NCBI GenBank assembly: GCA_963784365.1
Contig: CAWAQS010000006.1
Location: 1,296,930 to 1,360,929, forward strand
Length of the DNA: 64,000 nucleotides
Direction: 5' to 3'
Source of the DNA: an uncultured Thermoleophilia bacterium
GTDB taxonomy: Bacteria > Actinomycetota > Thermoleophilia > Miltoncostaeales > Miltoncostaeaceae
Part shown: piece by piece, positions 12,270 to 37,547 of the stretch
Position numbering within the stretch: position 1 is the first letter of the stretch
Layout: each line of letters starts with the position of its first letter
Notes under the pieces: generated by a model
Told to the model about the DNA's origin: nothing
The model's database searches: none
Seen by the model: the letters and a program-made list of their open reading frames with translations, nothing else
Made by a program: the position numbers and the translations under genes

Positions 12270-12276
12270 CGCGTTG

Positions 12277-12401: not shown

Positions 12402-12498
12402 TCTCGTCGCCATCGGCGACATCGGGGCCACGACCGGCCTGCGCGCGTCTCGGCACGATGTCGGCGCCGATCCGCCACGACGCGACCGGGAGGCTGGG

Positions 12499-22797: not shown

Positions 22798-23286
22798 ATG
22801 GCGGCCAAGAAGAACAACGAGAAGACGGACCGGTTCCGGGACGTCGCGCAGAACCGTCGCGCCCTGCACGAGTACGCGATCACCGACCGCTTCGAGGCGG
22901 GGATCGTGCTGCAGGGCAGCGAGGTGAAGGGCATCCGCGAGAGCGGGGCCACGATCAGCGACGCCTACGTCCAGATCCGCAACGGCGAGGCGTGGCTGGT
23001 GGGCGCCCACTTCTCGGACTACGAGAACGCCGGCTACGCCGGCCACGACCCGCGCCGCACGCGCAAGCTCCTGTTGCACCGCAAGGAGATCGAGCGGATC
23101 GCCCAGGCCCTCGCCGAGAAGGGCCTCGCGCTCGTCCCCCTCAGGCTCTACTTCAAGGAGGGGCGCGCCAAGATCGAGCTGGGGCTCGGGCGGGGGAAGA
23201 CCCTCTACGACAAGCGGCGCTCGATCGCCGAGCGCGACGCCCGCCGCGACGCCGATCGTGCGGTCAAGGCGGTCCGCAGGCGCTAG
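22798..23286 (+). CDS. smpB: SsrA-binding protein
   Basis: Intact ORF: '…NRRALHEYAITDRFEAGIVLQGSEVKGIRES…TRKLLLHRKEIERI…'. Confidence 0.9.
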   Translation: MAAKKNNEKTDRFRDVAQNRRALHEYAITDRFEAGIVLQGSEVKGIRESGATISDAYVQIRNGEAWLVGAHFSDYENAGYAGHDPRRTRKLLLHRKEIERIAQALAEKGLALVPLRLYFKEGRAKIELGLGRGKTLYDKRRSIAERDARRDADRAVKAVRRR

Positions 23287-23300: not shown

Positions 23301-24045
23301 TCAGTACTCGTCGCGGGAGATGCGCCACCAGCCCGCGCCCAGGAACAGGGCCAGCCAGGCGACCAGGGCCACGGCGGCGAGCGCCAGCGGCAGGCTCGTG
23401 TCGCTGCCCCCGAGCTCGCCGAGCACCGCCGGCAGCGCCAGGTCGCCGAGCGTCTGGTTCCAGGACGACACCAGCGCGAGGGCGGGCGCCACGCCGATGT
23501 TGATGACGAGCGCGATCGCGATGGCGGCGCCGTTCGAGCGCAGCAGGGATCCGATGCCCATGCTGATCAGGGCGTAGGTGCCGCTCAGCAGGAGCACGTT
23601 CCAGACCGACGATGCGACGTTCGTCGCGCTCATCGCGTCCTGGGACGCGGTGGGGAGGACGGCGCTGGCGATCAGGGCCACGACCAACGCGGGCAGCAGC
23701 ACCAGCCAGCTCGCCAGGAGCACCGCGGCCATCCGGCTGGCGTAGATCGACCAGCGCGAGGGTCCCGCAAGGAGCAGGTAGCGCATCGTGCCCTGCGACA
23801 CGTCGTACGAGCCGGCCAGGGCGCCCAGCACGATCGCGATCACCACGCCCACGAGGACCAGCACGGCGGTGGTCGCGTCGAGCAGGGGCCGCCCGCCGGC
23901 CGAGGCGTACTCCTCGGTGTCGCGCACGTGCACGACGTAGACGATCACGATCGTCAGGATCACCGCCCCGAGGGCGGTGCCCGCCGCGCCGAAGAACGAC
24001 CCGCGCCGCCCGACGATGGTTCGCAGTGTCGCCAGGATCACGGCC
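23301..24045 (-). CDS. ABC-2 type transporter permease
   Basis: Six predicted TM helices in the frame of ORF 23301..25004 (…AVILTIVIVYVV…, …LLASWLVLLPALVVALIASAVL…). It follows the ATPase on the minus strand; the start is uncertain. Confidence 0.6.
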
Positions 24046-25004
24046 CGTCGCCGCCGATCTCGCCCGGGGTGGCGCCGGCCGTGATGTCCAGGAAGCGTTC
24101 CTCGAGCGACTCGCGCTCGTGGACGATCTCTGACACGCCGATGCCCGCCTGGACCAGGGTCCGGGTGACCAGCATCGCCACCTGGTCGTCCATGTGGTCC
24201 AGCGTCAGGTTGAGCCGGCCCTCGCCGCCGCCGTTGCCGCTCCGGGCGATGCTGCCCACGATCCCCGCCGAGGCCAGCGCGCCCTCCACGCGGTCGGGGG
24301 CGTCCACCCGCAGCCGGATCGAGCTGCGACCGCCGGCCACCAGCTCCGCCACGGGCCCGTGCATCACCAGCCGCCCCGCCTGGACGATCGCGATGTCGTC
24401 GGCGAGCTTCTCGACCTCGTCCAGCAGGTGGGAGGAGATGAAGACGGTGCGCCCGTCCTCCTCGACGAAGGAGCGGATCATGTCGCGGAACTCGACGATC
24501 CCGGCCGGATCGAGCCCGTTGCTGGGCTCGTCCAGGATCAGCAGCTCGGGATCGGTGAGGAGGCTGCGCGCGACGCCCAGGCGCTGGCGCATGCCCAGCG
24601 AGTACTGCTTCACCGGCGCTGTCCGCGCGCTCGGTGAGGTTGACCCGCCCCAGGGCCCAGTCGATGCGCTCGTGGGCCGCGCCGCCGGTGAAGCGGGCCC
24701 ACACCTCGAGGTTGCCGCGGCCGGACAGGTACGGGTAGAAGCGCGGCTCCTCCACGATCCCGCCCACGCGCTCCAGCGCGCGCCGCGTCTCCGCCGGGAT
24801 GGGGTGGCCGCGCACCTCGATCGACCCCGAGGAGACGCGCGCGAGGCCGAGGATGCAGCGGATGAGCGTCGTCTTGCCCGATCCGTTGGGCCCCAGCCAG
24901 CCGAGGCAGCGGCCGGGCCGGACCTCGAAGGAGACGTCGTTGACGGCCACGTTCTCGCCGAACCGCTTCGAGACGTGGTCCAGGCGGATGATGGGTTCCG
25001 TCAC
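24038..25004 (-). CDS. ABC transporter ATP-binding protein, frameshift near 24610
   Basis: 'LGPNGSGKTTLIR' Walker A in frame 1, then 'LSGMRQRLGVARSLL…LILDEPSNGLD' signature and Walker B in frame 2. Confidence 0.75.
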
Positions 25005-25023
25005 GGGTACGTACGCTATCGGC

Positions 25024-25650
25024 TCATTCGTCGTCGACCATGACCACGTGCATGGCCAGCGCCCCGTGGGCGCCGAGGGTCGAGATCTTCTCGATGTCGG
25101 AGGTCCGGCTCGGTCCCGAGACGAGCGAGACGGCCGACGGGACCGCGCCCGCGCCGTAGGTCTCGGCGAGCGCCTCGGCCAGCGTCTCGCGCACGCGTGA
25201 GACCGGCAGGATCGCCAGGTGGTGCATGCTCACCACGTCGATCGCGCGCCCGTGGCCCGGTCCCGTGGCCAGCACCAGCGTGCCGCGCTCGGCGACCGCG
25301 AGCGCGGGCACGGTGACCCCGCAGGTGGCCGCCGGGCCGTCGAGCCCGAGCAGGTCGCGCCAGCCGAGGCCGCGCCCCTCCGGCCAGCGCAGCACCTCGC
25401 AGCCGGCGGCGGCGAGCGCCTCGGGGACGCCCAGGCGATCGAGCAGCGGGTCCCCGGCGATCAGCGCCCGCGTGCTCTCCCACGCGCCCACCTGGCGGGC
25501 CGCGGTCGCGGCGACCGCGGCCGCCGCCGTCCGCTCGGCGGTGGCGCGGTGGCGCACCAGCGACGCCGCCAGCGTCTCCGCGAGGTCGGCTATCGGGGCG
25601 GCCAGCGGCTCGGGAGGTCGCGCTGCTCGGTCCAGGCCGCGCCGCGGCCG
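25024..25650 (-). CDS. lutC: Lactate utilisation protein C (LUD domain)
   Basis: The C-terminal part 'GTLVLATGPGHGRAIDVVSMHHLAILPVSRVRETLAEALAE' is typical of LutC/YkgG. The N-terminus is disturbed by an indel. Confidence 0.6.
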   Translation of the reverse strand, partial: RPRRGLDRAARPPEPLAAPIADLAETLAASLVRHRATAERTAAAAVAATAARQVGAWESTRALIAGDPLLDRLGVPEALAAAGCEVLRWPEGRGLGWRDLLGLDGPAATCGVTVPALAVAERGTLVLATGPGHGRAIDVVSMHHLAILPVSRVRETLAEALAETYGAGAVPSAVSLVSGPSRTSDIEKISTLGAHGALAMHVVMVDDE

Positions 25651-26984
25651 GGCAGGCGCCGGATCCACCCCCGCCGGCCGAGCGTCCGCAGCCCGAGCCG
25701 CGCGCCGATGCGGGTCGCCCCGTAGAGCGCCGGGCTGCTCCACGCCCGGCTCCAGAGGGCGAACAGGCGCCGCTCGCGCCGGTGCGCCGCCGTGTCGGTG
25801 CGCCCCCGCACCCGCACCAGCAGGTCGTGGAGGGGGATCCCCACCGGGCACGCGTCGTGGCACGAGCCGCAGAGCGACGACAGGAAGGGCATCTCCGAGG
25901 AGCGCTCCCCGGCCGAGCCCTCGAGCAGCGGGGTGATGACCGCGCCGATCGGGCCCGAGTAGGGCGACCCGTAGGCCTGCCCGCCCACGCTGCGCCACAT
26001 GGGGCACGAGTAGAGGCAGGCGCCGCAGCGGATGCAGTCGAGCGCCTCCTCCAGGTCCGTCCCGCGCAGGGCGGCGCGCCCGCCGTCCAGCAGCACCAGG
26101 TGCAGCTCCTCGGGCCCGTCCGCCTCGTCCGCGGCCCGGGGCCCGGTGATCAGGTTCACGTAGGTCGCGGCGTCGTCGCCGATCGCCGCCATCGGCAGGA
26201 GCTGCAGGAGGTGGGCGGCCTGGTCCCAGTCCTCCACCACGCGCTCCATCCCCATCACCGCCACGTGGATGCGCGGCAGGGCCGTGACGAGGCGCCCGTT
26301 GCCCTCGTTCTCGACGACGCAGAGGGTCCCGGTCTCGGCCACGGCGAGGTTGACCCCCGAGACGCCGATGTCCGCCGCGGCGAAGACCTCGCGCAGGCGG
26401 CGCCGGGCGTGCGCCACCAGCGCCTCGCGCTCCTGCGGCACCGGCTCGCCGCTCTCCGCCTCGAAGAGCTCGCGGATCTGGGCCACGTTGAGGTGCACCG
26501 CCGGCGCGATGATGTGGCTGGGGTGCTGGCCGGCCAGCTGCAGGATCCACTCGCCCAGGTCGGTCTCCACGGCGCGCAGCCCGGCCTCCTCGAGGGCCTC
26601 GTTGAGCTTGATCTCCTCCGTGGCCATCGACTTCGACTTGGCGACGGTGGTGGCGCCCCGCGCGGCCGCCAGGTCGGTGATGTAGCGGCAGGCGGCCTCG
26701 CCGTCGGCGACGCGCGTCACGGTGCCCCCGGCCGCCGTCACCCGCTCCTCCAGCCGCTCCAGCAGCTCGGGCAGCCGGCGGATGTTGGAGCGGCGGATCT
26801 CCCGGCCGCGATCGCGCATCTGCGCGAACGGGTGCTCGCGCCCGATGCGGGCCCGGCCGGCGCTCCAGCTGCCGCCGGCGGTGCGCAGGTTGCCGCGCAG
26901 CTCGGTGTCGGCGAGGGCCTCCCGGGTGCGCTCGCGCAGCGGCTCCGTGATCTCCGGATAGACCACCGGGCGGCGCCCGCTCAC
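25600..26984 (-). CDS. lutB: Lactate utilisation protein B (4Fe-4S ferredoxin-type, LUD + DUF3390)
   Basis: 'CIRCGACLYSCPMWRSVGG…', 'CGSCHDACPVGIPL'. The GTG at 26984 overlaps the lutA stop. Confidence 0.75.
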
Positions 26985-27689
26985 CCCTCCAGGACCTCCG
27001 CCAGGTGGCGCGCCCGCAGGGGGATGCCGGTGCGGCGCGCGCGACCCACGATGTGGAGCAGGCAGGAGAGGTCGCAGGCCACGAGCTCGTCGGCGCCGGT
27101 CGCCGCCGCCGCGCGCGCCTTCTCCTCGCCGAGGTTGCCGGAGACCTCGGGGAAGTTGACGCTGAACGTGCCGCCGAAGCCGCAGCAGACCTCGGTCTGC
27201 TCCATCTCGCGCAGCTCCAGCCCCTCGACGCCCGCCAGCACGGTCCGCGGGCTCTCCTTCTCGCGCAGGATCCGCAGCATGTGGCAGGAGTCGTGGTAGG
27301 TCACCGATCCCGAGCCCGCGGGCCGGGCGCTGAGGCCCTCGCGCGCGAGGAACTGGGACAGCTCGACCGTCCGCTCGGCCATCTCGCGCGCCTGCTGCTC
27401 CTCGGGGCGGCCGGCGAAGAGCTCGGGATAGCCGTGGCGGATCATCGCCGCGCAGGAGCCCGAGGGCACCACCACCGGGTCGTCCCCGGCGAAGGCCGCG
27501 AAGGGCGCGCCGCGCGACCGGCCGCGCCTGGTCCGGGTGGCCCGAGCTCCAGGCCGGCTGCCCGCAGCACGTCTGCCCGCGCGGGACCGTCACCTCGACG
27601 CCCACCCGGCGCAGCACCGCCGCCGCCGCGCGCGGGACGGAGGGGGCGACCATGTCCGCGAGGCAGGTCCGCATGAGCAGCGCGCGCAT
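26981..27689 (-). CDS. lutA: Lactate utilisation protein A (CCG-domain Fe-S oxidoreductase), frameshift near 27500
   Basis: 'MRALLMRTCLADMVAPSVP…VPRGQTCCGQP' and a second CCG motif 'EVCCGFGGTFSVNFPEVS'. Confidence 0.75.
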
Positions 27690-27733
27690 CGGGTGATCGT
27701 AGCCCGCCGCGGTGCTACCCTCACCGGGAACAC

Positions 27734-28101
27734 GGGCCCGATCCAGTTTCGACGGAGCGGTACCGCATCGGTAAGCGAGCCGCGGACCCGGTGGACCGCG
27801 TCAAAAACCGGGAAACAATGGAGCTGCGGAGAACTCTCCCAAGCTCGCTCTCGCTGCCTAAACAGCAGTAAATGAGGGCCATCGGCCTCCCTTCGGATCG
27901 TGAGGGAGATCACCGGTGTCAACTAGCGATCCTGGCTCCGAAGCAACGGCACTCGGCGGAGGAGCGAGATAACAGGAGAGCCTGGCGGGGGAGCGGTTGG
28001 TCGACGATGACGCCCCTCGCGAGACACTCATCGACGACTGCGCTCGGAGAAGCCGGTGGGGGAACGCTTTCGGACGCCGGGGCAGTGCCGGCCGGGTCCA
28101 C
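27734..28101 (+). ncRNA. ssrA: Transfer-messenger RNA (tmRNA, ssrA); tag peptide (A)AENSPKLALAA; CCA not fully encoded
   Basis: The 5' end is GGGCCCGAUCCAGUUUCGACGG (compare E. coli GGGGCUGAUUCUGGAUUCGACGG). The acceptor stem 27734-27740 pairs with 28093-28099 and includes a G3:U70 wobble (alanine identity). There is an internal ORF GCU GCG GAG AAC UCU CCC AAG CUC GCU CUC GCU GCC UAA (27823-27861), a GGACG motif before the T-arm, and a 368-nt length in a local GC-poor island. Confidence 0.75.
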
Positions 28102-28181
28102 TGTGAGTGACGCGGGAGTCGTTTCGGCGGAGGGTCGCCGAACCGGCTCCCGCTCACGTTCCGGGGCCGGGAGGGCCCGGG

Positions 28182-29399
28182 TCAGCCGCCCCGCTCCTGG
28201 TCCGATCCCTTCAGCAGCCGGGCGAGGGGATAGCGGCGGCGCATGAACTCGGCGAAGTGCGGCACGGTGAAGTCGACCGACCCGTACTCGGGGTCGTAGA
28301 TCAGCCCCTTGCGGATGAGGGCCTGGCGCGCCTTCCCCGATGAGGTGCGCCTGCGGTAGCCGGCCCGTTCCGTCACCGCGGCGGTCGCCTGCGGTCCGTC
28401 GCCGAGGTCCGCCATCGCCGCCATGTAGCGCCGCTCCTCGTTGGTGGCCTCCTCCACGCGGTTGTCGAAGAACTCCTCGTCGAGGATCTCCTGCGCCACC
28501 GGCAGGGCCTCGGCGACGGCGGCCGCGGTGATCGGCGAGACGCCGGCCTCCTCCCAGACGACGCGTCCGTACTCCTGGATGAAGTACGGATACCCGTCCG
28601 CGGCGGCGAGGATCGACGCGACCCCCGCGTCCTCGTAGACGGCCCCGGCCCGCGTCGCCGGGGTCACCAGCGCCGAGTGGGCGGCGCCGTCGCTGAGGCG
28701 ACCGAGCGGGAAGTACTCGAAGAGCCGCTCCGCGTAGGGCTTCGCCGAGCGGAGCTGGGCCGGGAGCGCCGGCAGTCCCGCGCCGACGAGGGCGACGGGC
28801 AGCTTCCTCTGGGCGAGCTTGTGGAACGCCATGCACAGGGCCCCCATCGCCACCGGCTCGAGGTTCTGCATCTCGTCGACGAGGTAGACGACGCCCGTGC
28901 CGCCGGCCCGCGCCGCCTCGCCCAGCTGGACGAGCAGCTCGGTCAGGTCCTCCTCGATGTCGCCGCTGTCGGCGCTGCCGGTGACCGCGGAGACGTCGAT
29001 GTTGAGCTGGAAGCCGCCCGGCGTGATCACGTTGAACGCCTTCAGCACCCCCAGCACCCGCGTGACGCGCTCCCTGATCATCTGCCTGCGGCTGAGGCCG
29101 CGCAGCAGCCGGTGGGTCATCCGGGCGATCGACGTGCGGAAGTCGGTCGTGGCGCCGATCTCGACCACGCCGGTGCAGTCCCAGCCGCGCTCCACCGCGA
29201 GCCTCTCGAACTCCAGCAGCAGCACGGTCTTGCCGACGCCGCGCAGCCCCGAGAGGATCAGGCTGCGGCCGGGGCGGCCCTCCTCGAGCCGCGCGAGGAG
29301 GGCGTCGAAGTTCTCGATGTCACGGTCGCGGCCCGCCAGGAAGGGCGGCATCGTCCCCGCCCCGGCGCTGTAGGGGTTCGTGGCGCGGGTCAGCTGCAC
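28182..29399 (-). CDS. AAA+ ATPase (ORC/Cdc6-like 'ATP-binding protein', AAA_16-type with C-terminal winged helix)
   Basis: Intact 405-aa ORF: Walker A 'GLRGVGKTVLL', Walker B 'VVYLVDEMQN'. Confidence 0.7.
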   Translation of the reverse strand: MQLTRATNPYSAGAGTMPPFLAGRDRDIENFDALLARLEEGRPGRSLILSGLRGVGKTVLLLEFERLAVERGWDCTGVVEIGATTDFRTSIARMTHRLLRGLSRRQMIRERVTRVLGVLKAFNVITPGGFQLNIDVSAVTGSADSGDIEEDLTELLVQLGEAARAGGTGVVYLVDEMQNLEPVAMGALCMAFHKLAQRKLPVALVGAGLPALPAQLRSAKPYAERLFEYFPLGRLSDGAAHSALVTPATRAGAVYEDAGVASILAAADGYPYFIQEYGRVVWEEAGVSPITAAAVAEALPVAQEILDEEFFDNRVEEATNEERRYMAAMADLGDGPQATAAVTERAGYRRRTSSGKARQALIRKGLIYDPEYGSVDFTVPHFAEFMRRRYPLARLLKGSDQERGG

Positions 29400-29435
29400 G
29401 GCGTCGAGCGCCGTCGGAGGCGCGGTCTGGGCCTG

Positions 29436-29551
29436 TATGGCGATTTCCCCATAACTTCCCGCATGGCGTGCGGTCCTCGGAGTATGGGGTCGCCATCGGC
29501 CGTGTCACCGGGTGGCGCCCATCGGCGCCGGCGTATGGGGATTTCCCCACA
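29436..29551. promoter_or_regulatory. Three copies of an imperfect palindrome TATGG(G/C)GA-TTTCC-CCA(T/C)A in the divergent promoter region
   Basis: 29436-29453 TATGGCGATTTCCCCATA; 29483-29496 TATGGGGTCGCCAT (short version, opposite polarity); 29534-29551 TATGGGGATTTCCCCACA. They sit between the AAA ATPase (-) and the wHTH-hydrolase gene (+). Confidence 0.4.
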
Positions 29552-29617
29552 CGCCCCCATACCGGGACGGGTGCCGGCGGCGACCCGAATGGCGCGCGCA
29601 TCGTCCGAGCGGTCATG

Positions 29618-30837
29618 ATGGGGCGATGCGCTACGAGTTCGAGGATTTCGCCCTCGACCTCGACCGTTTCGAGCTCCGCCGAGCCGGGCGGGCCTGCCAC
29701 GTCGAGCCGAAGGCGTTCGACGTCCTGGTGCAGCTGGTGCGGTCGCACGGCCGGGTGGTGACGAAGGACGAGCTGCTCGAATCCGTCTGGGGTCACCGGT
29801 TCGTCGACCGAGTCCGCGCTGACCACCCGGATCAAGGCGCTGCGGAGGGTGCTGGCCGACGACGGGCGCTCCCAGCGGGTGATCCGCACCGCGAGGGGGC
29901 GCGGGTACGAGTTCGTCGCGCCGGTGCGGATCGCGGACCCGGAGGTCCCGGACGGGAGACCCGGGCTCCCCCCGCCGGAGCGCCCCCTTCACCAGGAGAT
30001 CCGGTTCTGCGCGACGCCCGACGGGACGCGCCTGGCGTACGCGCTCGTCGGCGAGGGCCCGCCGCTGCTGAAGGCGGCCAACTGGATGACGCACCTCGAC
30101 TACGACTGGGAGAGCCCGGTCTGGGCCCACTGGCTCCGGGGGCTCGCCCGCCACCGGCGCCTGGTCCGCTACGACCAGCGCGGCTGCGGCCTGTCGGACT
30201 GGGACGTCGCGGACTTCTCGCCCGACGCCTGGCTCGCGGACCTCGAGGCGGTCGTCGACGCCGCGGGCCTCGGGCGCGTCGCGCTGCTCGGGCTGTCGCG
30301 GGGCGCGTCGACCGCGATCGCGTACGCGGCGCGGCACCCCGAGCGGGTCTCCCACCTGGTCCTCTTCGGCGCCTCGGCGCGCGGCAGGATGCTCCGCGCC
30401 CGCACCGATGCCGAGCGGCGGTCGGCCGAGGTGATGATCGAGCTGGCCCGGCTGGGCTGGGGCGCCGACGATCCGGCGTTCCGGCAGGTGTTCGCCATGC
30501 AGTTCATCCCCGACGGAAGCGCCGAGGACTGGCGGGCGTTCAACGATCTCCACCGCCGCACCACCTCGCCGGAGAACGCCGCCCGCTTCATGGAGGCCTT
30601 CGGCCGGGTCAACGTCACGGGGCTCTGCGCGCGGGTGCGGGCGCCGACGCTGATCATGCACGCGCGCGGCGACCTCCGGGTGCCGTTCGAGTCCGCCCGC
30701 GAGCTCGCGTCCCTGATCCCCGGGAGCCGCCTCGTCCCGCTCGACAGCCGAAACCACATCCTGCGCGCCGACGAGCCGGCGTGGCCGCGGTTCCTCGAGG
30801 AGCTCGACGCCTTCCTGGGGGACGACCCCGGCTGACC
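29618..30837 (+). CDS. Fusion protein: OmpR/PhoB-type winged-helix DNA-binding domain + alpha/beta-hydrolase fold; frameshift near 29800
   Basis: N-terminus 'MRYEFEDFALDLDRFELRRAGRACHVEPKAFDVLVQLVRSHGRVVTKDELLESVWG…RGRGYEFV' (trans_reg_C). Then 'RFCATPDGTRLAYALVGEGPPLL…GLSRGASTAIAYAARHP…' hydrolase core. Confidence 0.7.
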
Positions 30838-30851
30838 GCCCGCGCGGCGCG

Positions 30852-31163
30852 CTACGCGAGCAGCCCCAGCGCGGCGATGACCACGAGCCCCGCCACGACG
30901 GCCGCCGCCGTCCCACCGGCGCGCGCGGCGAGAGCGGCCACGGCCACGACGGCCACCGCCGCCGGATCCACGAGCCCCCCGGCGCCGGGGTGCTGGGCGA
31001 CCAGGTTGGCGAGCAGCGCGCCCAGGAGGGGCGCGCGGGCGTGGTCGAGCGCCGCCCGGGTCCCCGGGCCGAGGCGGACCCGCCGGCCGGCGACCAGGAA
31101 CGAGGCGCGGAGCGCGTAGATCCCGAGCCCCGTGGCCGCGAGCAGGGCCATCATGCTCACCGG
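30852..31163 (-). CDS. azlD: Branched-chain amino-acid transport protein AzlD
   Basis: About 100 aa and very hydrophobic: 'VSMMALLAATGLGIYALRASFLVAG…'. It overlaps the end of azlC. Confidence 0.55.
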   Translation of the reverse strand, partial: PVSMMALLAATGLGIYALRASFLVAGRRVRLGPGTRAALDHARAPLLGALLANLVAQHPGAGGLVDPAAVAVVAVAALAARAGGTAAAVVAGLVVIAALGLLA

Positions 31164-31860
31164 AATCCCCCCTCGCTCCACCCGGCGGCCAGGAGGCCCC
31201 CGAGCGTGCCGACGACGATCGCCAGCCCGGCCGGCAGCGCCGCGCCCGCGAGGGCGATGCCGGCTCCGGCGCCGGCCGCGGCGACCGTCGCGCGATCGAC
31301 CAGCGCCCCGCGCAGCATCCCCGCCAGCAGGGCCCCGAGCACCAACTCGACCCGCCAGGTGGTCGGGACGACCGGGCCGACCAGCATCCCGCTGGTGATC
31401 GCGACGATCCACGTGAACCAGATGGCGGCCCCGGCGGTCAGGAAGGCGCGCCGCAGCGCGCGGGGTGCGACGCCCCTCCGGCACCACTCGTCGGTGAGCA
31501 CGTACATCTGATCGACGAGGAAGTAGGGCGCCACCGCCCGGAACCAGGCGGGCTGGTCGGCGAGCGGTCCGGCGAGCGCGGCGCTGTAGATCAGCCCCCG
31601 GCTCGAGATCGCGAGCGCGGTCGCCATGGCCGCCAGCATCCCCGCGCCGCCGGCGTACACCGACAGCAGCGCGAAGTGGGCCGCGCCCGAGAGCAGCAGC
31701 GGCCCACCGGCCCACCCGGCGAGGGGCGCGATCGGCGCGGCGGTCGTCGTGACCCCGAGCGCCCAGCCGAGGGGCAGGAGCGCGACGCAGCACGGGCGCC
31801 ACCTCCGCGAGCACCTCGCGCGCCCGGGGCTCCGTCGTCCGCGGGCGGCCTCGCCCTCCT
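31157..31860 (-). CDS. azlC: AzlC-family branched-chain amino-acid permease
   Basis: '…LSGAAHFALLSVYAGGAGMLAAMATALAISSRGLIYSAALAG…YFLVDQMYVL…' is typical of AzlC. The exact start is unclear because the ORF runs on into the upstream gene. Confidence 0.6.
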
Positions 31861-31949
31861 GAGACTCCGATGATCCGCATGAGGCGATGATCCGGCCCGC
31901 CCGCGGCCGGCGCTTGGCGGATGGCGGGGGATCGTGTGGCGATCCGGTG

Positions 31950-32845
31950 ACGGGGGCGAGCGCCCCCGGGCTCAGGCCGGCGTCCGCCCCGGGATCGGCT
32001 GGTCCTGGGCGGGCGGGCTCCGCCACGGCGGGCGAGGGGGGCAGGGCGGCCCCCGAGGCGCGCAGCTCGCGCGCCAGGAGCGAGGTCATCTCCTGGATCG
32101 TGCTCATCAGCGGGGCCGGGAAGATGACCGTGGAGTTCTTGTCCACCGAGATCTCCACCAGCGTCTGCAGGTTGCGCAGCTGGAGCGCGATCGGGTGGCT
32201 CATCATCACGTCCGAGGCCCGGGCGAGCTCGCCGGCGGCCAGCGCCTCGCCCTCGGCCGCGATGATCTTGGCGCGCTTCTCGCGCTCTGCCTCGGCCTGC
32301 TTGGCCATCGCGCGCTTCATCGTCTCCGGCAGCTGGATGTCCTTCACCTCCACCAGCGTCACGAAGACGCCCCACTCCTCGGTCTGGACGTCGAGGATCT
32401 CGCGGATGTTCTTGTTGATCCGCTCGGTCTCCGACAGCGTCTCGTCGAGCGTGTGCTGGCCGACCACCGCGCGCAGGGTCGTCTGGGCGATGTGGGCGAT
32501 CGCGGCGCGGACGTCCTCGATCGCGACCACGGAGCGGATGGGATCGTCCACCCGGTAGTAGGCGACGGCCGAGATGTCGACGCTCACGTTGTCCTTGGTG
32601 ATGATCTCCTGGGACTGGATCGGCATCGTGACGATCCGCAGGGAGACCCGCTTGATGCGGTCGATCACGGGGATGATGAGCACCAGCCCCGGGCCCCGCG
32701 GGCCGTCCGTCAGCTTGCCGAGCCGGAACTGGACGCCGCGCTCGTACTGGCGGAAGACCCGTATCGACAGCGCGGCGATCACCAGCGCGACGATGACGAC
32801 GATCACGAGGGCGATCTCCACCGCCCACACTCCCTCTCGGGGCAT
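31950..32845 (-). CDS. SPFH/Band-7 (stomatin/slipin-like) membrane protein
   Basis: N-terminal TM 'VWAVEIALVIVVIVALVIAAL', then 'VFRQYERGVQFRLGKL…PGLVLIIPVIDRIKRVSLRIVTMPIQSQEIITKDNV…' and coiled-coil 'AEAEREKRAKIIAAEGE'. The C-terminal boundary is approximate. Confidence 0.75.
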
Positions 32846-32936
32846 CACCTCACCCGCGACGGTAGGCGGCCGCCGGGGGGCCGCCATCCGCGCGGGTGCG
32901 GATGGCGGCTGCGGCATCACCGCGCCGGTGGGGCCC

Positions 32937-33878
32937 TCAGGCCGGCCGGCGGGAGCGGCGCAGCAGGGCGCGCAGGGTCGAGCCGTTGGCGAAGCCCACC
33001 CGGGGCGCGATCTGGTCGATGCTCTCGTCGGTGGTGCGCAGCAGGTGCGCCGCCCGCTCCGTGCGCAGCCGCTGCACCAGGGCGAGCGGCGAGAACCCGA
33101 CGGCGCGGGACACCCGCCGCTCGAGGGTGCGCCGGCTGGTGCCGATCGTCCGCGCCGCCACCCCGATGTCCATCGGACGGTCGAGGTTGGCGCGTGCGTA
33201 CTCCTCGAACTCCCGCACGAGCGGATCGTCGTGGGCGAGGTGGTCGACGGCGAGGTAGGCGCTCTGCGACGGCCGCTCGTCCACCAGGAGCAGGCGGCTG
33301 ACCAGATCGGCCAGGGCCGGGCTCTCGCGCCGCAGCAGCGTCAGCGCGAGGTCGACGTGGCCCAGGGCGGCGCCGGCGGTGATCGCGCGCTCGTCGGTGA
33401 CGACCATCGCGTCGAGGTCCAGGCGCACGTCGGGGTAGCGGCTCCGGAAGCCCGGGCCCAGCCACCAGCTCGTGGTGGCGCGCCCACCGTCCAGGATCCC
33501 GGCCTCGGCGAGGGCGAACGAGCCGGTGCACGCGGCGGCGAGACGCGCGCTCCCCCCGGCGGCCGCGGTCGTTGCGCGCATCAGCTCGCGGATGTCCGGC
33601 CGCGCGAGCGCCGCGACGGTCTCCTCGGCCGTGAAGGTCTTGAGGGCGCAGACGACCGCCACGTCGAAGTCCGCCAGCTCGCGCAGCGTCGCCGAGACCG
33701 GCAGGATCGCCCCCGAGCTGGTGGTCACCCGTGAGCGCGTGCCGACGATCTCGACCTCGATCGGCGGGATCGACGGGTCAACCTCCGCGCGCAGCGCCTC
33801 CGCGGTCTGGAGGAGGTCCAGCATCGAGACCACTCCGACGCCGAAGCATCCGTCCATCGCGGCAAGCCCGATGCGCAT
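32937..33878 (-). CDS. GlxA-family transcriptional regulator (DJ-1/PfpI domain + AraC-type HTH)
   Basis: 'MRIGLAAMDGCFGVGVVSMLDLLQ…' and the C-terminal AraC HTH 'DIGVAARTIGTSRRTLERRVSRAVGFSPLALVQRLRTERAAHLL'. Confidence 0.8.
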   Translation of the reverse strand: MRIGLAAMDGCFGVGVVSMLDLLQTAEALRAEVDPSIPPIEVEIVGTRSRVTTSSGAILPVSATLRELADFDVAVVCALKTFTAEETVAALARPDIRELMRATTAAAGGSARLAAACTGSFALAEAGILDGGRATTSWWLGPGFRSRYPDVRLDLDAMVVTDERAITAGAALGHVDLALTLLRRESPALADLVSRLLLVDERPSQSAYLAVDHLAHDDPLVREFEEYARANLDRPMDIGVAARTIGTSRRTLERRVSRAVGFSPLALVQRLRTERAAHLLRTTDESIDQIAPRVGFANGSTLRALLRRSRRPA

Positions 33879-33969
33879 GACGCAAACCGTATCAAGATCG
33901 GCGGATACGCCACTCGATCGCCGCGCGTTCGATGGGCCAGGCTCACGGAAACCCACCGGGAGGCACCCC

Positions 33970-34263
33970 ATGGTCACCGTCGCGCTCGTCGTCAAGCTCA
34001 CCGCCAAGCCCGAGACCGCCGACGAGGTGAAGACGTTCCTCACCGACGCGCTCGCGCTGGCCGACGCCGAGCCGGGTACGCCGGTCTGGATGTCGCTGCG
34101 CACCGACGCGACCACGTTCTGGATCGTCGACGCGTTCCCCGGCGACGCCGAGCGGCAGGCCCACCTCTCGGGGCCGATCGCAGAGGCCCTGCTGGCCAAC
34201 GCCGACCGCCTGCTGGCGGCGCCCCCGGAGATCCAGCCGGCCGACGTGCTCGCCATCAAGTAG
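33970..34263 (+). CDS. Antibiotic-biosynthesis-monooxygenase (ABM) domain protein, YgiN-like
   Basis: 97-aa ORF 'MVTVALVVKLTAKPETADEVKTFLTDALALADAEPGTPVWMSL…', divergent from the GlxA regulator. Confidence 0.75.
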   Translation: MVTVALVVKLTAKPETADEVKTFLTDALALADAEPGTPVWMSLRTDATTFWIVDAFPGDAERQAHLSGPIAEALLANADRLLAAPPEIQPADVLAIK

Positions 34264-34302
34264 GGGTGCGCCGCGCCGAGCGGCTGGGGTACGCTCCGCG
34301 TC

Positions 34303-35928
34303 GTGAGCGACCTCCTCCCTCGGCGTGTCGCGGGGCTCCGGCGCCGCCGCGCCCTCGTGGGCGCCCTGGCGGTCGCCGCCCTGGCCGCGCCGGGCGTCGC
34401 GAGCGCCGCGACGCCGGTGACCGTGACCTTCACGACCCCCGGCGAGAGCCCGTTCGTCATTCCGGGCGGCGTCCGCCATCTCCAGATCGTGGCCGTGGGC
34501 GGCCAGGGCGGGACGGGGCAGAGCGCCCTGGCGCCCGGCGGCTTCGGGGCGCGGGTGACCGGCGAGGTCGCCGTCACGCCGGGGTCGGTCGTCTACGCCG
34601 AGGTGGGCGCCAACGGCGCCGCCGGCACGGCGACCCCGGGATCGGCGATCGGCGGCGGCGGCGCCGGGGGCGCCGGCGGATCCAGCGGGGACACCGGAGG
34701 CGGCGGAGGGGGCGCGTCCGTCTTCCAGACCGCCGCGGCGGCCTCGGCCGGGGCCGCGGCCTCGCGTCTGATCGTGGCGGGCGGCGGCGGCGGATCGGGC
34801 GGGGCGGCGACCTCGGGCAGCGGAGGCGGCGCGGCGGGCGTCGCGGGCGCCGCGGGCAGCACGGCCCTGAGCGGCGGAGGCGGCGGGACCGCGCTCGCCG
34901 GAGGAGCGGCCGGCGCCGGCACCGGAACCGGCGGCACGGCGGCGCTCGCGGGGGTCTCGGCCCTCGGCGGGGCCGGCGCGTCCGGCGGCTCCACCGCCAC
35001 CAGCGTGGGCGGCGGCGGCGGCGGCGGCGGGTACTTCGGCGGCGGCGGTGGCGGCAGCGCGACCAGCGGGTCCGGCGGCGGCGGAGGCGGCGGGGCGAGC
35101 TTCACGGCCCCGAGCGTGACCGGGGTCGTCGCGGTCCCGGACACCAGCGGCACCCCGTCCGTCACGATCACCTACACGCCCGTGGCGATCGCGAGCCTCA
35201 GCCCGGGCGGGCTGATCTTCCCGGCCCGGCTGATCGGCACCACGAGCGACGCGGACGCGGTGACGGTCACGAACACCGGCTCGGAGCCCCTGACCGTCAC
35301 GGGCACCCCGCTGAGCGGGGCCGACCCGGCCGACTTCGCCCTCCAGTCGGAGTGCGCCGCGGCCCTCGCTCCGGGCGCCGCGTGCCGCGTGCTGGTGCGC
35401 TTCACGCCGCACGGGGCGGGCACCAGGGTGGCGACGCTGACCGTGGACTCGAACGCCGTGGACGGGGCCGTCCGGGTGCTGCTCACCGGAGCGGGAACCG
35501 CGCCCCCGCCGCCGCCCCCGCCGACCCCCGCGATCTCGGGCCTCAGCGTCTCGCCGAGCGCCTTCCGCGCGGCCCGCGGCGGCGGCTCGGTGGTGTCCAA
35601 CCCGTCGCTGGGGGCCCGGATCGCCTACCGGGCGAACGTCGGGTTCACCAGCACCTTCACCGTCCAGCGCGCCACGCCCGGCGTCCGCTCGGGCAACCGC
35701 TGCCTCGCCCCGCCGCGCCGGCGCCAACCCGAAGGCGCGCGGCTGCGTTCGCTGGGTCGGGCTCGGGAACTTCAGCACCACCGCGCGCGCCGGTGCCAAC
35801 GCCTGCGCTTCAGCGGCCGCGTCTGGGGCCGCACGCTCGCGCCGGGGACCTACCGCCTGAGTGCGGTGCCGCGCAGCGGATCGCGCATCGGCGCCACCGT
35901 CCGGGTCGGGTTCCGCATCCTCCGCTGA
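34303..35928 (+). CDS. Secreted glycine-rich repeat protein with choice-of-anchor-D/ASH-like beta domain
   Basis: Signal peptide 'RRRRALVGALAVAALAAPGVASA', a roughly 200-aa Gly/Ala/Ser/Thr low-complexity block (34620-35100), then 'LTVTGTPLSGADPADFALQSECAAALAPGAACRVLVRFTPHGAGTRVATLTVDSNA'. Probable frameshift near 35700. Confidence 0.6.
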   Translation: MSDLLPRRVAGLRRRRALVGALAVAALAAPGVASAATPVTVTFTTPGESPFVIPGGVRHLQIVAVGGQGGTGQSALAPGGFGARVTGEVAVTPGSVVYAEVGANGAAGTATPGSAIGGGGAGGAGGSSGDTGGGGGGASVFQTAAAASAGAAASRLIVAGGGGGSGGAATSGSGGGAAGVAGAAGSTALSGGGGGTALAGGAAGAGTGTGGTAALAGVSALGGAGASGGSTATSVGGGGGGGGYFGGGGGGSATSGSGGGGGGGASFTAPSVTGVVAVPDTSGTPSVTITYTPVAIASLSPGGLIFPARLIGTTSDADAVTVTNTGSEPLTVTGTPLSGADPADFALQSECAAALAPGAACRVLVRFTPHGAGTRVATLTVDSNAVDGAVRVLLTGAGTAPPPPPPPTPAISGLSVSPSAFRAARGGGSVVSNPSLGARIAYRANVGFTSTFTVQRATPGVRSGNRCLAPPRRRQPEGARLRSLGRARELQHHRARRCQRLRFSGRVWGRTLAPGTYRLSAVPRSGSRIGATVRVGFRILR

Positions 35929-36083
35929 GGCCGGCGGAAGCGAATCCGACGAGTTCCGCCGGTGGGCGCCGGCCGGTGACGGATTCATCGCCCTGAGGCT
36001 CTGGCGACCCCTCGGGCGGCCGGGTATCGTCGCCGCTCGCCGCACCCGGGCGGTCGAACCACACGGACGAGGGGAGATGCGCC

Positions 36084-37547
36084 ATGGCGAGACGATCGGT
36101 GCTGCGCGCGGGTGTGATCGGGCTGGTGGTCGGGGCGGCGGCGCTGGTGCCGTCGGCGGCCTCGGCGGCGCCCTGGAGGGCGGACGTACGCCATCCGCAC
36201 CACCCCCACGGTCCCCGTGCCCCCTGGCATCCGGGGCCCCCGTCGCCGCAGATCGGCGCGCCGGGCCTCGGGGACCCCTTCTTCCCGCTGGCCGGCAACG
36301 GCGGCTACGACGTCTCCCACTACTCGCTGCGCCTGGCGTACGAGCCCGCCACCCAGCGGCTCGACGGCAACGCGGTCATCACGGCCACCGCCACCCAGGA
36401 CCTCGGCCGCTTCGACCTCGACCTGCGCGGCTTCGCCGTCTCGGACGTGCGGGTGGACGGCAGGCCCGCGCTGTTCACGCGCGACGGGCAGGAGCTGCAG
36501 ATCACGCCGGCCCGGCCCCTGCGCCGGCGCGCCGCGTTCGTCGTGACGCTCGCGTACACGGGCGTGCCCGAGGTGGTCACCGACCCGGACGGCTCGATCG
36601 AGGGCTGGGTCCCGACGACGGACGGCGCGTTCGTGGTGGGGGAGCCCCAGGGCTCGCCGTCGTGGTTCCCCGGCAACGACAACCCGCGCGACAAGGCGAC
36701 CTACGACATCGCGATCACCGTCCCCGACGGCGTCACCGCGATGTCGAACGGGGTGCTGGCGGCCTCCTGGTCGCGCGGCGGGCGCACGACCTGGTCCTGG
36801 CGCGAGTCCTCGCCGATGGCCACCTACCTCGCGACGGCGACGCTCGGGCGCTTCTCGCTCACCCGGTCGCGGGTCGCGGGCGTGCCGAGCTACGTCGCGG
36901 TCGATCCCTCGCAGGCGGCGGACGCCGCGCCGGTCCTGGCGCAGCTGCCCGACATGGTCGCCTACTACTCGTCGGTCTTCGGGCGCTACCCGTTCGACGC
37001 CGTGGGGGCGATCGTGGACGACGCGCCCGAGGTGGGCTACGCGCTCGAGTCGCAGACCAAGCCGAACTTCGACCGCGCCCCGGACGAGTTCACCCTGGCC
37101 CACGAGATCGCCCACCAGTGGTTCGGCGACTCGGTGAGCCTGACCGTCTGGCCCGACATCTGGCTCAACGAGGGCTTCGCGACCTACTCCGAGTGGCTCT
37201 GGGGCGAGCACACCGGCCAGTTCACCCCCCAGGAGGTCTTCGACGACCTCTACGCCGCGCCCGACACGGCGAGCTACTGGAACCCGCCGCCCGCCGGCAT
37301 CACCGACCCGGCCGACCTCTTCGCGGAGAGCACCTACGTGCGCGGCGCGATGACCCTTCAGGCCCTGAGGGTGAAGGTCGGCGACCCCGCCTTCTTCCGG
37401 ATCCTGCGGCGCTGGTACGCGGCCAACCGCGACGGCAACGTCACGACGGCCGACTTCACGGCCCTGGCCGCGCGCGAGTCCCGGATGAACCTGGACGCCT
37501 TCTTCACCGCGTGGCTCACGACGCCGGGCAAGCCCCTGACCTGGTAG
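36084..37547 (+). CDS. Secreted M1-family zinc aminopeptidase
   Basis: Intact. Signal peptide, 'HEIAHQWFGDSVSLTVWPDIWLNEGFATYSE' (HEXXH-X18-E), and 'GAMTLQALR'. Confidence 0.85.
   Translation: MARRSVLRAGVIGLVVGAAALVPSAASAAPWRADVRHPHHPHGPRAPWHPGPPSPQIGAPGLGDPFFPLAGNGGYDVSHYSLRLAYEPATQRLDGNAVITATATQDLGRFDLDLRGFAVSDVRVDGRPALFTRDGQELQITPARPLRRRAAFVVTLAYTGVPEVVTDPDGSIEGWVPTTDGAFVVGEPQGSPSWFPGNDNPRDKATYDIAITVPDGVTAMSNGVLAASWSRGGRTTWSWRESSPMATYLATATLGRFSLTRSRVAGVPSYVAVDPSQAADAAPVLAQLPDMVAYYSSVFGRYPFDAVGAIVDDAPEVGYALESQTKPNFDRAPDEFTLAHEIAHQWFGDSVSLTVWPDIWLNEGFATYSEWLWGEHTGQFTPQEVFDDLYAAPDTASYWNPPPAGITDPADLFAESTYVRGAMTLQALRVKVGDPAFFRILRRWYAANRDGNVTTADFTALAARESRMNLDAFFTAWLTTPGKPLTW

What the first reader, a model, noticed from the sequence alone, without database searches (positions are those of the whole stretch)
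27734..28101. tmRNA (ssrA) gene with tag AAENSPKLALAA, non-encoded CCA and an apparently non-canonical T-loop
A roughly 370-nt GC-poor island has all the tmRNA hallmarks. The 5' end is GGGCCCGAUCCAGUUUCGACGG. The 7-bp acceptor stem includes a G3:U70 pair. The internal short ORF ends ...CUC GCU CUC GCU GCC UAA (KLALAA*), the classic proteolysis tag. A GGACG motif precedes the T-arm. The predicted T-stem (GCCGG/CCGGC) encloses GGCAGUG instead of the near-universal UUCGAAU. The sequence ends ...CCAC-UG, so CCA would be added post-transcriptionally. The gene is not directly downstream of smpB; it lies 4.4 kb away, beyond an opposite-strand ABC/lutABC block. That matters because the stretch immediately downstream is the most accessory-looking part of the window, and tmRNA 3' ends are classic island integration sites.
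Basis: partly seen in the sequence, partly recalled or inferred. Interest (0 to 1): 0.6.

Follow-up and report, generated by a model that had tools for sequence, protein, structure and literature searches.

The report
tmRNA gene with alpha-type elbow
This is a genuine, conserved tmRNA (ribosome-rescue RNA) gene of a Thermoleophilia actinobacterium whose tRNA-like elbow carries the rare GGCAGUG T-loop already known from alphaproteobacterial tmRNAs, so one common gene finder misses it; otherwise it is ordinary.

Summary
Window 27734-28101(+) is a full-length standard (one-piece) tmRNA: Rfam RF00023 scores 94.9 bits, E 1e-35. It has a G3:U70 acceptor stem, an ...KLALAA tag, no encoded CCA, and smpB 4.4 kb upstream. 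The T-loop GGCAGUG is not an error. It is identical (or GGCAGUA) in 15 other assemblies of the same Thermoleophilia/Miltoncostaeaceae clade, whose tmRNAs show 29 compensatory base-pair changes and synonymous changes in the tag.

The loop is not new. GGC(A/G)GUA is the consensus T-loop of alphaproteobacterial two-piece tmRNA (RF01849), and the GG replacement was noted in 2005. Three points add to that:
- The loop also occurs in standard-form tmRNAs of this actinobacterial clade and of at least two low-GC lineages.
- In all 120 sampled cases it pairs with a D-loop 'AG' where canonical tmRNAs have 'GG' (30/30). That indicates a coupled change of the elbow contacts.
- ARAGORN finds permuted genes with this loop (78/85) but misses all 25 standard-form ones.

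The island idea is only half supported. Synteny with relatives breaks exactly at the ssrA 3' end, but there is no integrase, no att repeat and no compositional shift.

The parts
27711..27721 (+). Conserved extended -10-like promoter motif GGTGCTACCCT (TGn + TACCCT), ending 12 nt before the mature 5' end.
   Evidence: In alignment A3 of 13 clade members, GGTG.TA...T is invariant while the surrounding sequence diverges. The generic sigma-70 scan found no full consensus promoter. Promoter function is therefore inferred.
27734..28101 (+). Standard-form (one-piece) tmRNA gene, ssrA. The discriminator is A28100 and C28101 could serve as the first C of CCA.
   Evidence: RF00023 scores 94.9 bits, E 1e-35, over the full model. 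Homologs exist in 15 other assemblies. 29 of 104 predicted pairs carry compensatory changes.
27734..27740 (+). Acceptor stem 5' strand GGGCCCG. G27736 is G3 of the G3:U70 alanine identity pair.
   Evidence: Read from the sequence. The pairs are invariant in A2.
27741..27753 (+). D-loop analogue AUCCAGUUUCGAC. It has 'AG' (27745-27746) where canonical tmRNAs have 'GG'.
   Evidence: Compared with the Rfam consensus. ARAGORN detection is restored only when this loop and the T-loop are both repaired. AG co-occurs with the GG-type T-loop in 120/120 cases and GG with the UU-type in 30/30.
27823..27861 (+). Tag reading frame, (A)AENSPKLALAA plus UAA. The probable resume codon is GCG at 27826.
   Evidence: Across the clade there are synonymous changes (CCC/CCU/CCG for Pro; GCU/GCA/GCC for Ala) and an in-frame 3-nt insertion in L009.
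28076..28092 (+). T-arm: stem GCCGG/CCGGC and 7-nt loop GGCAGUG (28081-28087), the GG-type (alpha-type) T-loop.
   Evidence: It is invariant in 16 clade sequences; the last loop base is A in L009 and L181. The same loop sits on at least 7 different, compensated T-stems in metagenomes. It is the consensus of RF01849.
28093..28100 (+). Acceptor stem 3' strand CGGGUCC (U28097 = U70) plus discriminator A. CCA is not encoded: the following bases are CUG.
   Evidence: The bases after the discriminator in relatives are CUG, CCU, CUU, CUC or UGU.
28107..28157 (+). Strong GC-rich hairpin just past the 3' end. It is probably a U-tract-less terminator or a 3'-processing signal.
   Evidence: Folding 28098-28185 gives MFE -55.7 kcal/mol, z -4.3, with 0 of 200 shuffles as stable. 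Homology with L003 and L004 extends through it, to 28165 and 28170. The terminator scan found no U-tract terminator.
22798..23286 (+). smpB, the protein partner that binds the tmRNA elbow.
   Evidence: Pfam SmpB E 2e-56. The closest solved structures are 5ZEY and 1P6V. Clade-specific substitutions are S45G, N82G and K135T.
28104..37493 (.). Variable region that begins at the ssrA 3' end. Relative L001 rejoins at 37494, L002 at 43091 and L007 at 44999. It holds ordinary accessory genes, no integrase and no att repeat.
   Evidence: Synteny, Pfam, repeat searches and GC profile.

Best explanation
This is the functional ssrA gene of a Thermoleophilia (Miltoncostaeaceae-like) actinobacterium. It encodes a standard one-piece tmRNA.

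Likely life cycle:
1. Transcription starts from a conserved extended -10-type promoter.
2. RNase P cuts the short 5' leader at G27734.
3. The 3' trailer, which holds a strong hairpin, is trimmed back to A28100 or C28101, and the CCA-adding enzyme completes CCA.
4. AlaRS charges the RNA through G3:U70 and A73.
5. SmpB binds the elbow and EF-Tu delivers the complex to stalled ribosomes.
6. Translation resumes, probably at GCG 27826, and appends (A)AENSPKLALAA as a degradation tag.

Its one peculiarity is the elbow. The T-loop is GGCAGUG instead of UUCRANY, and the D-loop analogue has AG instead of GG. By analogy with tRNA, I infer three things:
- The reverse-Hoogsteen U54-A58 pair is replaced by a purine-purine G54-G58 pair.
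- The G18-Psi55 contact is replaced by A18-G55.
- G19-C56 and the intercalating purine 57 are kept.

This would be an alternative, co-adapted way to build the same L-shaped corner, and it could not carry the usual m5U54 and Psi55 modifications. Alphaproteobacterial and mitochondrial two-piece tmRNAs use the same solution. It appears to have arisen independently here.

Shown: gene identity, conservation, covariation, the D/T-loop correlation and the taxonomic spread. Inferred: the specific tertiary pairs, the processing steps and the resume codon.
For: Gene identity:
- RF00023 full-length hit at 94.9 bits.
- SmpB is encoded nearby.

Not an error or a pseudogene:
- The same TLD occurs in 16 independent assemblies spanning 63-96% SmpB identity.
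- 29 of 104 predicted pairs keep pairing through double changes.
- The tag evolves by synonymous and in-frame changes.
- There is a conserved promoter-like motif upstream and a hairpin downstream.

The elbow change is coupled:
- ARAGORN detects the gene only when the T-loop and D-loop are both repaired in silico. Repairing either alone fails.
- Across 150 tmRNAs, the GG-type T-loop always goes with D-loop AG (120/120; 24+3 distinct TLD haplotypes). The UU-type always goes with GG (30/30; 19 haplotypes).

The loop is a known functional alternative:
- It is the consensus of RF01849.
- It sits on at least 7 compensated T-stems.
- Burks 2005 noted the GG replacement in the Reclinomonas mitochondrial tmRNA, and a G at the U342 position in Caulobacter.

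The change is specific to tmRNA: tRNAs on GG-type contigs keep UUCGA loops.

The origin is independent: with the TLD removed, the nearest non-clade relatives are all canonical-loop Actinomycetota, and no other GG-type tmRNA is hit.

Supporting literature:
- D/T-loop contacts are functionally required in E. coli tmRNA, and the T-loop carries m5U and Psi (PMC3968760).
- Purine-purine 54/58 pairs with a purine at position 60 have precedent in eukaryotic tRNAi and tRNAAla (PMC7566577).
Against: - There is no expression, aminoacylation or tagging data.
- The proposed tertiary pairs (G54-G58, A18-G55) rest on analogy with tRNA and on covariation, not on a structure.
- The number of truly independent origins behind the 120/30 table is small, perhaps 4-6 lineages. 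The GG-type set was also selected by its T-loop sequence.
- I could not scan the rest of any clade genome for a second, canonical ssrA.
- The window comes from an error-prone assembly with many frameshifts, so single-base details seen only in the window are less certain.
- No ordinary tRNA from this clade was available as a within-clade control.
Confidence: 0.88

Rival explanations
1. The odd T-loop is an assembly or sequencing artefact, or this ssrA copy is a decaying pseudogene.
For: The window has many frameshifts in neighbouring genes relative to its relatives. ARAGORN does not call the gene.
Against: - Six of the seven loop bases differ from the canonical loop, which indel-type errors cannot produce.
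- The identical T-arm occurs in 15 other assemblies from different projects.
- The rest of the RNA shows 29 compensated pairs and coding-type constraint on the tag.
- The same loop is the norm in RF01849.
Confidence: 0.02
2. The tRNA-like domain was acquired from an alphaproteobacterial (or other GG-type) tmRNA by transfer or recombination, giving a chimeric gene rather than an independent origin.
For: The 7-nt loop and the D-loop AG are the same as in alpha and other lineages. Several coordinated substitutions are needed to get there, which makes repeated origin seem hard.
Against: - The acceptor stem (GGGCCCG/CGGGUCC) and T-stem (GCCGG/CCGGC) are unique to the clade among 120 GG-type sequences.
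- The gene is in standard order, not permuted.
- The body of the RNA is related only to canonical-loop actinobacterial tmRNAs.
- Recombining both the 5' and 3' ends of a 370-nt gene would require two separate exchanges.
Confidence: 0.07
3. The stretch immediately downstream (28104 to roughly 37-45 kb) is a genomic island that integrated into the 3' end of ssrA.
For: - Homology with 7 of 9 relatives ends exactly at 28101-28108 and resumes 9-17 kb later.
- Each relative has a different first downstream gene, including a HipA toxin in L004.
- tmRNA genes are well-known integration sites (PMC11915505 abstract).
Against: - There is no integrase or other mobility gene among the ORFs scanned at 28-47.5 kb, or next to ssrA in any relative.
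- No duplicate of the ssrA 3' end of 13 nt or more exists in the window or in 9 relatives. Looser matches are at chance level: 4 observed against 1.9 expected.
- GC is 0.71-0.80, like the rest of the window.
- The gene content is ordinary metabolic and regulatory.
- Part of the region (29610-32475) is syntenic in L003.
Confidence: 0.2

Closest known systems
Standard (one-piece) bacterial tmRNA, Rfam RF00023
   Same: Gene order, length (about 367 nt), 7-bp acceptor stem with G3:U70 and A73, helix 2, pseudoknot-rich body, a tag ORF ending ALAA with its stop codon in a hairpin loop, and the SmpB partner. It is a full-length model hit.
   Different: The T-loop is GGCAGUG instead of UUCRANY, and the D-loop has AG instead of GG. 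The Rfam score is modest, 95 bits, where the tmRNA-database authors call anything above 140 bits 'strong'.
Alphaproteobacterial two-piece (permuted) tmRNA, Rfam RF01849, and the jakobid mitochondrial tmRNA
   Same: The same T-loop: the consensus is GGCgGUA, and GGCAGUA is common. The D-loop has the same A-G at the position of the canonical G-G. The literature noted that GG replaces U341/U342 in R. americana mt-tmRNA, and that the U342 equivalent is G in Caulobacter (PMC1168896).
   Different: Those genes are circularly permuted and give two RNA chains; this one is a single chain in standard order. The acceptor and T-stems differ. The body is actinobacterial and shows no detectable similarity to alpha tmRNAs.
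Other standard-form tmRNAs with the GG-type T-loop found here in metagenomes (two low-GC classes; L124)
   Same: One-piece RF00023 hits of 74-145 bits with T-loop GGCAGU(A/G/U) and D-loop AG. All are missed by ARAGORN.
   Different: They have different acceptor and T-stems, tags, lengths (348-412 nt) and GC content (36-58%). Most encode CCA. Their taxonomy is unknown.
Eukaryotic initiator tRNA and AGC-tRNAAla with an A54/A58 purine-purine T-loop pair
   Same: They are a precedent for replacing the U54-A58 reverse-Hoogsteen pair with a purine-purine pair, accompanied by a purine at position 60 and a D-loop change (PMC7566577). They too are alanine- or initiator-specific adaptors.
   Different: The pair is A/A there, not G/G. 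U55 and G18 are retained. These are tRNAs, not tmRNA. The comparison is structural analogy only.

Membership tests
tmRNA, standard form (RF00023) | Covariance-model score above the curated gathering threshold over the full model | tested here: met
   94.9 bits against 47, model positions 1-374 of 374, E 1e-35.
tmRNA, standard form (RF00023) | 7-bp acceptor stem formed by the 5' and 3' ends, with G3:U70 and discriminator A (alanine identity) | tested here: met
   GGGCCCG/CGGGUCC plus A28100. Invariant in 16 sequences.
tmRNA, standard form (RF00023) | T-arm with a 5-bp stem and a 7-nt loop | tested here: met
   GCCGG-N7-CCGGC.
tmRNA, standard form (RF00023) | Canonical T-loop sequence UUCRANY (substrate for m5U54 and Psi55) and D-loop GG | tested here: not met
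   The loop is GGCAGUG and the D-loop has AG. This is a typical feature rather than an obligatory one, since the accepted alpha family lacks it too.
tmRNA, standard form (RF00023) | Internal tag ORF starting at an Ala codon without a start codon, ending in a hydrophobic ...ALAA, and under coding constraint | tested here: met
   (A)AENSPKLALAA followed by a stop codon. Variation in the clade is synonymous or in-frame.
tmRNA, standard form (RF00023) | Helix 2 and pseudoknot helices supported by covariation | tested here: met
   29 of 104 RNAalifold pairs show double compensatory changes, concentrated in helix 2 and the pseudoknot-domain helices. The pseudoknots themselves were not modelled.
tmRNA, standard form (RF00023) | Cognate SmpB encoded in the genome | tested here: met
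   Pfam SmpB E 2e-56 at 22798-23286. In L155 and L166 it sits directly next to ssrA.
tmRNA, standard form (RF00023) | Alanylation, SmpB/EF-Tu binding and trans-translation activity | not testable with these tools
   This needs biochemistry or tag proteomics.
Alphaproteobacterial tmRNA (RF01849) | Circularly permuted gene (acceptor piece before coding piece) | tested here: not met
   The 5' acceptor strand lies upstream of the T-arm, and the match to the standard model is full length. It is not a member; it shares only the elbow.
Alphaproteobacterial tmRNA (RF01849) | T-loop GGC(A/G)GUA with D-loop A-G | tested here: met
   GGCAGUG with AG.
ssrA-integrated genomic island | Tyrosine or serine integrase gene adjacent to the ssrA 3' end | tested here: not met
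   The first downstream gene is an AAA_16 ATPase. No integrase was found in the ORFs scanned at 28-47.5 kb or next to ssrA in 7 relatives. The stretch 43.1-46.0 kb was not Pfam-scanned.
ssrA-integrated genomic island | Direct repeat (attR) duplicating the 3' end of ssrA at the far boundary | tested here: not met
   No match of 13 nt or more in the window or in 9 relatives. Matches allowing up to 3 mismatches are at chance level.
ssrA-integrated genomic island | Presence/absence polymorphism bounded by the ssrA 3' end | tested here: met
   Homology ends at 28101-28108 in 7 of 9 relatives and resumes at 37494, 43091 or 44999.
ssrA-integrated genomic island | Atypical base composition | tested here: not met
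   GC is 0.71-0.80 across 28-45 kb, within the window's range.

The most novel reading that the evidence does not exclude
The GG-type elbow (T-loop GGCAGUR plus D-loop AG) may be a discrete second architecture for the tmRNA corner. On this reading it has arisen independently several times: in alphaproteobacteria and mitochondria, in this Thermoleophilia clade, and in at least two low-GC lineages. It would require about four coordinated substitutions with no intermediates seen. It would dispense with the m5U54 and Psi55 modifications. It would co-evolve with SmpB, as suggested by S45G and N82G at otherwise 74-94% conserved positions. That would make it a natural experiment in how a universally conserved RNA tertiary motif can be rebuilt.
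Probability: 0.35. Interest if true: 0.5.

Novelty: new member of a known kind. Interest (0 to 1): 0.3.

Why it matters
For the window itself, this settles that the locus is an ordinary, functional ribosome-rescue RNA gene.

There are two modest points beyond that.

1. Practical. Standard-form tmRNAs with this elbow are invisible to ARAGORN: 25 of 25 were missed, while permuted genes with the same loop are found. Annotation pipelines that rely on ARAGORN for tmRNA will therefore report these genomes as lacking ssrA. Covariance models do find them, but at modest scores of 74-99 bits.

2. Structural and evolutionary. The strict pairing of T-loop GGCAGUR with D-loop AG, in lineages whose tmRNA bodies are unrelated, is clean comparative evidence for the D-loop/T-loop contacts in tmRNA. 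It also shows that a second sequence solution exists for the tRNA elbow, one that cannot carry the conserved T54 and Psi55 modifications.

Tried and rejected
- ARAGORN on the window and on all relatives found no tmRNA. I first blamed the T-loop alone, but in-silico repair of the T-loop alone did not rescue detection. Partial repairs and adding CCA did not either. Only T-loop plus D-loop repair did. Even then ARAGORN mis-called the tag.
- Exact look-up of the window's SmpB in the assembly index found no record.
- The att-site search found nothing: a 17-nt 3' end with up to 3 mismatches, a 13-mer search in the window and 9 relatives, and a general direct-repeat search of 27.6-48 kb.
- The integrase search by Pfam, on window ORFs and on the first genes downstream of ssrA in relatives, found none.
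- Consensus sigma-70 promoter and U-tract terminator scans found none. A clade-conserved -10-like motif and a hairpin were found by alignment and folding instead.
- A control with ordinary tRNAs of the same clade was not possible. No tRNA gene lies in the window or the clade loci, apart from one dubious SeC call in L007. tRNAs from other GG-type contigs were used instead.
- Testing the SmpB substitutions S45G and N82G in other GG-type lineages failed, because only clade members carry smpB on the fetched contigs.
- Keiler 2000 and Bessho 2007 are not in the library. The supplements of the 2025 tmRNA database paper give no class-level information on Thermoleophilia.
- An alternative T-arm fold with an IRE-like C-G pair inside the loop was considered and rejected. 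The G at loop position 7 is A in L009, L181 and most other lineages.

Full report
**1. Observation**

- A 5' GGGCCCGAUCCAGUUUCGACGG.
- A 7-bp acceptor stem, GGGCCCG/CGGGUCC, with G3:U70 and discriminator A28100.
- UUUCGGAC followed by a 5-bp T-stem, GCCGG/CCGGC, around the loop GGCAGUG (28081-28087).
- An internal frame ending ...AAG CUC GCU CUC GCU GCC UAA.
- The bases C-U-G after the discriminator, so CCA is not encoded.

Rfam's standard tmRNA model RF00023 matches end to end at 94.9 bits (gathering score 47, E 1e-35). The hit is 65% GC, in a window that averages about 75% GC. It is the only Rfam hit in the 64 kb. ARAGORN reports no gene.

**2. Context and source**

Third-position GC gene calling and Pfam give this order:
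- S41 peptidase, RNase R and smpB (22798-23286) on the plus strand;
- an ABC transporter and lutCBA on the minus strand;
- ssrA;
- an AAA_16 ATPase on the minus strand, followed by assorted hydrolases, regulators and transporters.

SmpB relatives in species-representative genomes place the window in Thermoleophilia/Miltoncostaeaceae (Actinomycetota). SmpB identity is 79-96% to eight MAGs of that group and 63-67% to two deeper ones. The window carries many frameshifts relative to these relatives, in lutA, the S41 peptidase, RNase R and others. It is therefore probably an error-prone long-read assembly, and single-base details need corroboration.

**3. The gene is real, conserved and under selection**

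nhmmer finds a homolog 3-6 kb downstream of smpB in nine of ten close relatives. In the tenth the locus ends just short of the expected site. Six further members turned up in metagenomes. The 16-sequence alignment shows the following.
- The whole tRNA-like domain is invariant.
- 29 of 104 predicted pairs keep pairing through changes on both sides, mainly in helix 2 and the pseudoknot-domain helices.
- The tag varies only by conservative, synonymous or in-frame changes: AAENSPK, AAESSPK, AAETSPK and AAKTSSSK before LALAA, with CCC/CCU/CCG and GCU/GCA/GCC synonyms.
- Upstream, GGTGCTACCCT (27711-27721) is conserved in otherwise diverged sequence. It is a plausible extended -10 element.
- Downstream there is a very stable hairpin at 28107-28157, z -4.3.

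The bases after the discriminator are CUG, CCU, CUU, CUC or UGU across the clade. CCA must therefore be added after transcription.

The Rfam alignment places GCG, not the preceding GCU, at the resume-codon position. The deeper clade members have GUAGCU|GCG, which resembles E. coli AUAGUC|GCA; the E. coli sequence is from my own knowledge. So the encoded tag is probably AENSPKLALAA.

**4. The T-loop**

It is not an error, because all 16 assemblies have GGCAGU(G/A). It is also not unique. Of these, 118 have a properly paired T-stem. There are at least seven different T-stems related by compensatory changes, and several different acceptor stems.

Rfam classifies most of them as alphaproteobacterial two-piece tmRNA, RF01849, at 100-314 bits. 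That family's consensus T-arm is CCGGG-GGCgGUA-CCCGG. Burks et al. 2005 had already recorded that U341/U342 are replaced by GG in the Reclinomonas mitochondrial tmRNA, and that the U342 equivalent is G in Caulobacter (PMC1168896). The loop is therefore a known, functional alternative.

Less expected is that 25 of the contigs carry standard-form tmRNAs (RF00023, 74-145 bits). They comprise:
- six members of this clade;
- two low-GC classes of unknown taxonomy;
- a single sequence, L124, whose TLD is identical to the commonest alpha class.

**5. Coupled D-loop change**

ARAGORN still failed after I replaced the T-loop with UUCGAAU, after partial repairs, and after adding CCA. It succeeded only when the D-loop analogue was also changed from GAUCCAGUUUCGAC to GAUCUGGAUUCGAC.

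I then tabulated all tmRNAs in hand, anchoring the D-loop on the conserved (C/A)GAC.
- Every GG-type T-loop goes with A-G at the two positions where canonical tmRNAs have G-G. That is 117 of 120 directly; the other 3 have a one-base insertion but still read AG. They make up 27 distinct TLD haplotypes.
- All 30 UU-type tmRNAs have G-G (19 haplotypes).

In tRNA, G18 contacts Psi55, G19 pairs with C56, U54 pairs with A58 and purine 57 intercalates; this is established tRNA knowledge. D/T-loop contacts are functionally required in E. coli tmRNA (Barends 2002, cited in PMC3968760).

The simplest reading is that G18-Psi55 has become A18-G55 and U54-A58 has become G54-G58, while G19-C56 and R57 are kept. 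A purine-purine 54/58 pair accompanied by a purine at position 60 has precedent in eukaryotic tRNAi and tRNAAla (PMC7566577). Here position 60 is G or A in 118 of 120 sequences. These pair assignments are inference. Such a loop cannot carry the m5U and Psi found in the E. coli tmRNA T-loop.

Ordinary tRNAs on GG-type contigs keep UUCGA loops, so the change is specific to tmRNA. No tRNA from this particular clade was available for the same check.

**6. Origin**

With the first 22 and last 50 nt removed, the window's tmRNA finds only canonical-loop Actinomycetota outside its clade: Streptomyces, other Actinomycetes, Solirubrobacterales and Acidimicrobiales. It finds none of the roughly 105 other GG-type tmRNAs at E up to 1. 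Its acceptor and T-stems are also unique among GG-type sequences. Independent origin within an actinobacterial lineage is therefore more likely than transfer from alphaproteobacteria.

SmpB of the clade has Gly at two otherwise strongly conserved positions: S45G (Ser in 66 of 70 canonical-lineage proteins) and N82G (Asn in 52 of 70). Whether these relate to the elbow could not be tested, because no smpB lies on the alpha or low-GC contigs. The closest solved SmpB structures are 5ZEY and 1P6V.

**7. Tool blind spot**

ARAGORN found 78 of 85 permuted genes with the GG-type loop but none of the 25 true standard-form ones. It evidently accepts this loop only in its permuted search. The 2025 tmRNA database paper used ARAGORN and BLASTN as its main route. 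It used Rfam-only candidates only for taxa with at least 20 genomes and more than 50% failures (PMC11915505). It does not mention this variant.

**8. Island hypothesis**

The synteny break is real. Homology with L001, L002, L006, L007, L008, L009 and L012 stops at 28101-28108. It resumes at 37494 in L001, 43091 in L002 and 44999 in L007. L003 and L004 continue through the hairpin, and L003 shares 29610-32475.

The first gene after ssrA differs in every genome: AAA_16 ATPase, Na/H exchanger, HipA, EamA transporter, methyltransferases, a MalT/LuxR regulator and OmdA.

The defining marks of an ssrA island are absent.
- No integrase.
- No duplicate of the ssrA 3' end.
- No compositional shift.

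I regard this as a recombination-prone or flexible region bounded by a conserved gene. A much-decayed island is the minority alternative.

In two deeper clade members (L155, L166) they are directly adjacent. In L001 the ABC block is missing. The intervening genes are therefore lineage-specific insertions.

**9. Verdict**

Its non-canonical T-loop is real and conserved across the clade, but it belongs to an already known alternative, the alpha-type. The additions are its presence in standard-form actinobacterial tmRNAs, its strict coupling to a D-loop G-to-A change, and the resulting ARAGORN blind spot. These are of modest specialist interest.

Noticed in passing
L124:1795-2152 (-) (metagenome contig Ga0302321_100047874): A standard-form tmRNA (RF00023, 144.7 bits; tag ANDNSFALAA; 3' end ACAC). 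Its acceptor stem GGGGGCG/CGCCUCC and T-arm CCGGG-GGCAGUA-CCCGG are identical to the commonest alphaproteobacterial permuted class. It may be an un-permuted relative of the alpha form.
   Followed up: partly
L082, L153, L160, L183 and others (class A); L085, L097, L134, L148 and others (class B): Two low-GC (36-49% GC) lineages of unknown taxonomy carry one-piece tmRNAs with the GG-type T-loop and D-loop AG. Class A is about 350 nt with D-loop ACAAAGCUUAGAC. Class B is about 400 nt with long tags. All are missed by ARAGORN. L183 also carries a full 16S rRNA gene (11289-12879) that could place class A.
   Followed up: partly
window 19092, 20243, 21000-22400, ~24615, ~27500: Neighbouring genes are split across frames relative to intact homologs in L002 and L003: a 302-aa protein, the S41 peptidase, RNase R (several shifts), the ABC ATPase and lutA. 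The pattern looks like indel errors of a long-read assembly rather than biology.
   Followed up: partly
window 22798-23286 (SmpB residues 45, 82, 135): SmpB of this clade has Gly45, Gly82 and Thr135. In 70 SmpBs from canonical-loop lineages the same positions are Ser (66/70), Asn (52/70) and Lys (45/70). This may be co-adaptation to the variant elbow; it was not tested structurally.
   Followed up: partly
window 23301-27689 versus L001, L155 and L166: The genes between smpB and ssrA are lineage-specific. L001 lacks the ABC transporter block. In L155 and L166, smpB sits about 60 nt from ssrA.
   Followed up: partly
window 34303-35928 (+): A glycine-rich secreted-looking protein with weak Pfam hits (ALK_LTK_GRD and Ig-like domains). 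It is encoded by GGC-rich imperfect direct repeats at 34654-35107.
   Followed up: no
L004:16327-17649 (-): A HipA-family toxin kinase (HipA_C plus Couple_hipA) is the first gene downstream of ssrA in this relative. It is the only mobile-element-like gene seen next to ssrA in the clade.
   Followed up: no
L007:15859-15945 (-): ARAGORN calls a tRNA-SeC(tca) about 900 nt downstream of ssrA. It lies within high-GC, probably coding, sequence and is likely a false positive.
   Followed up: no
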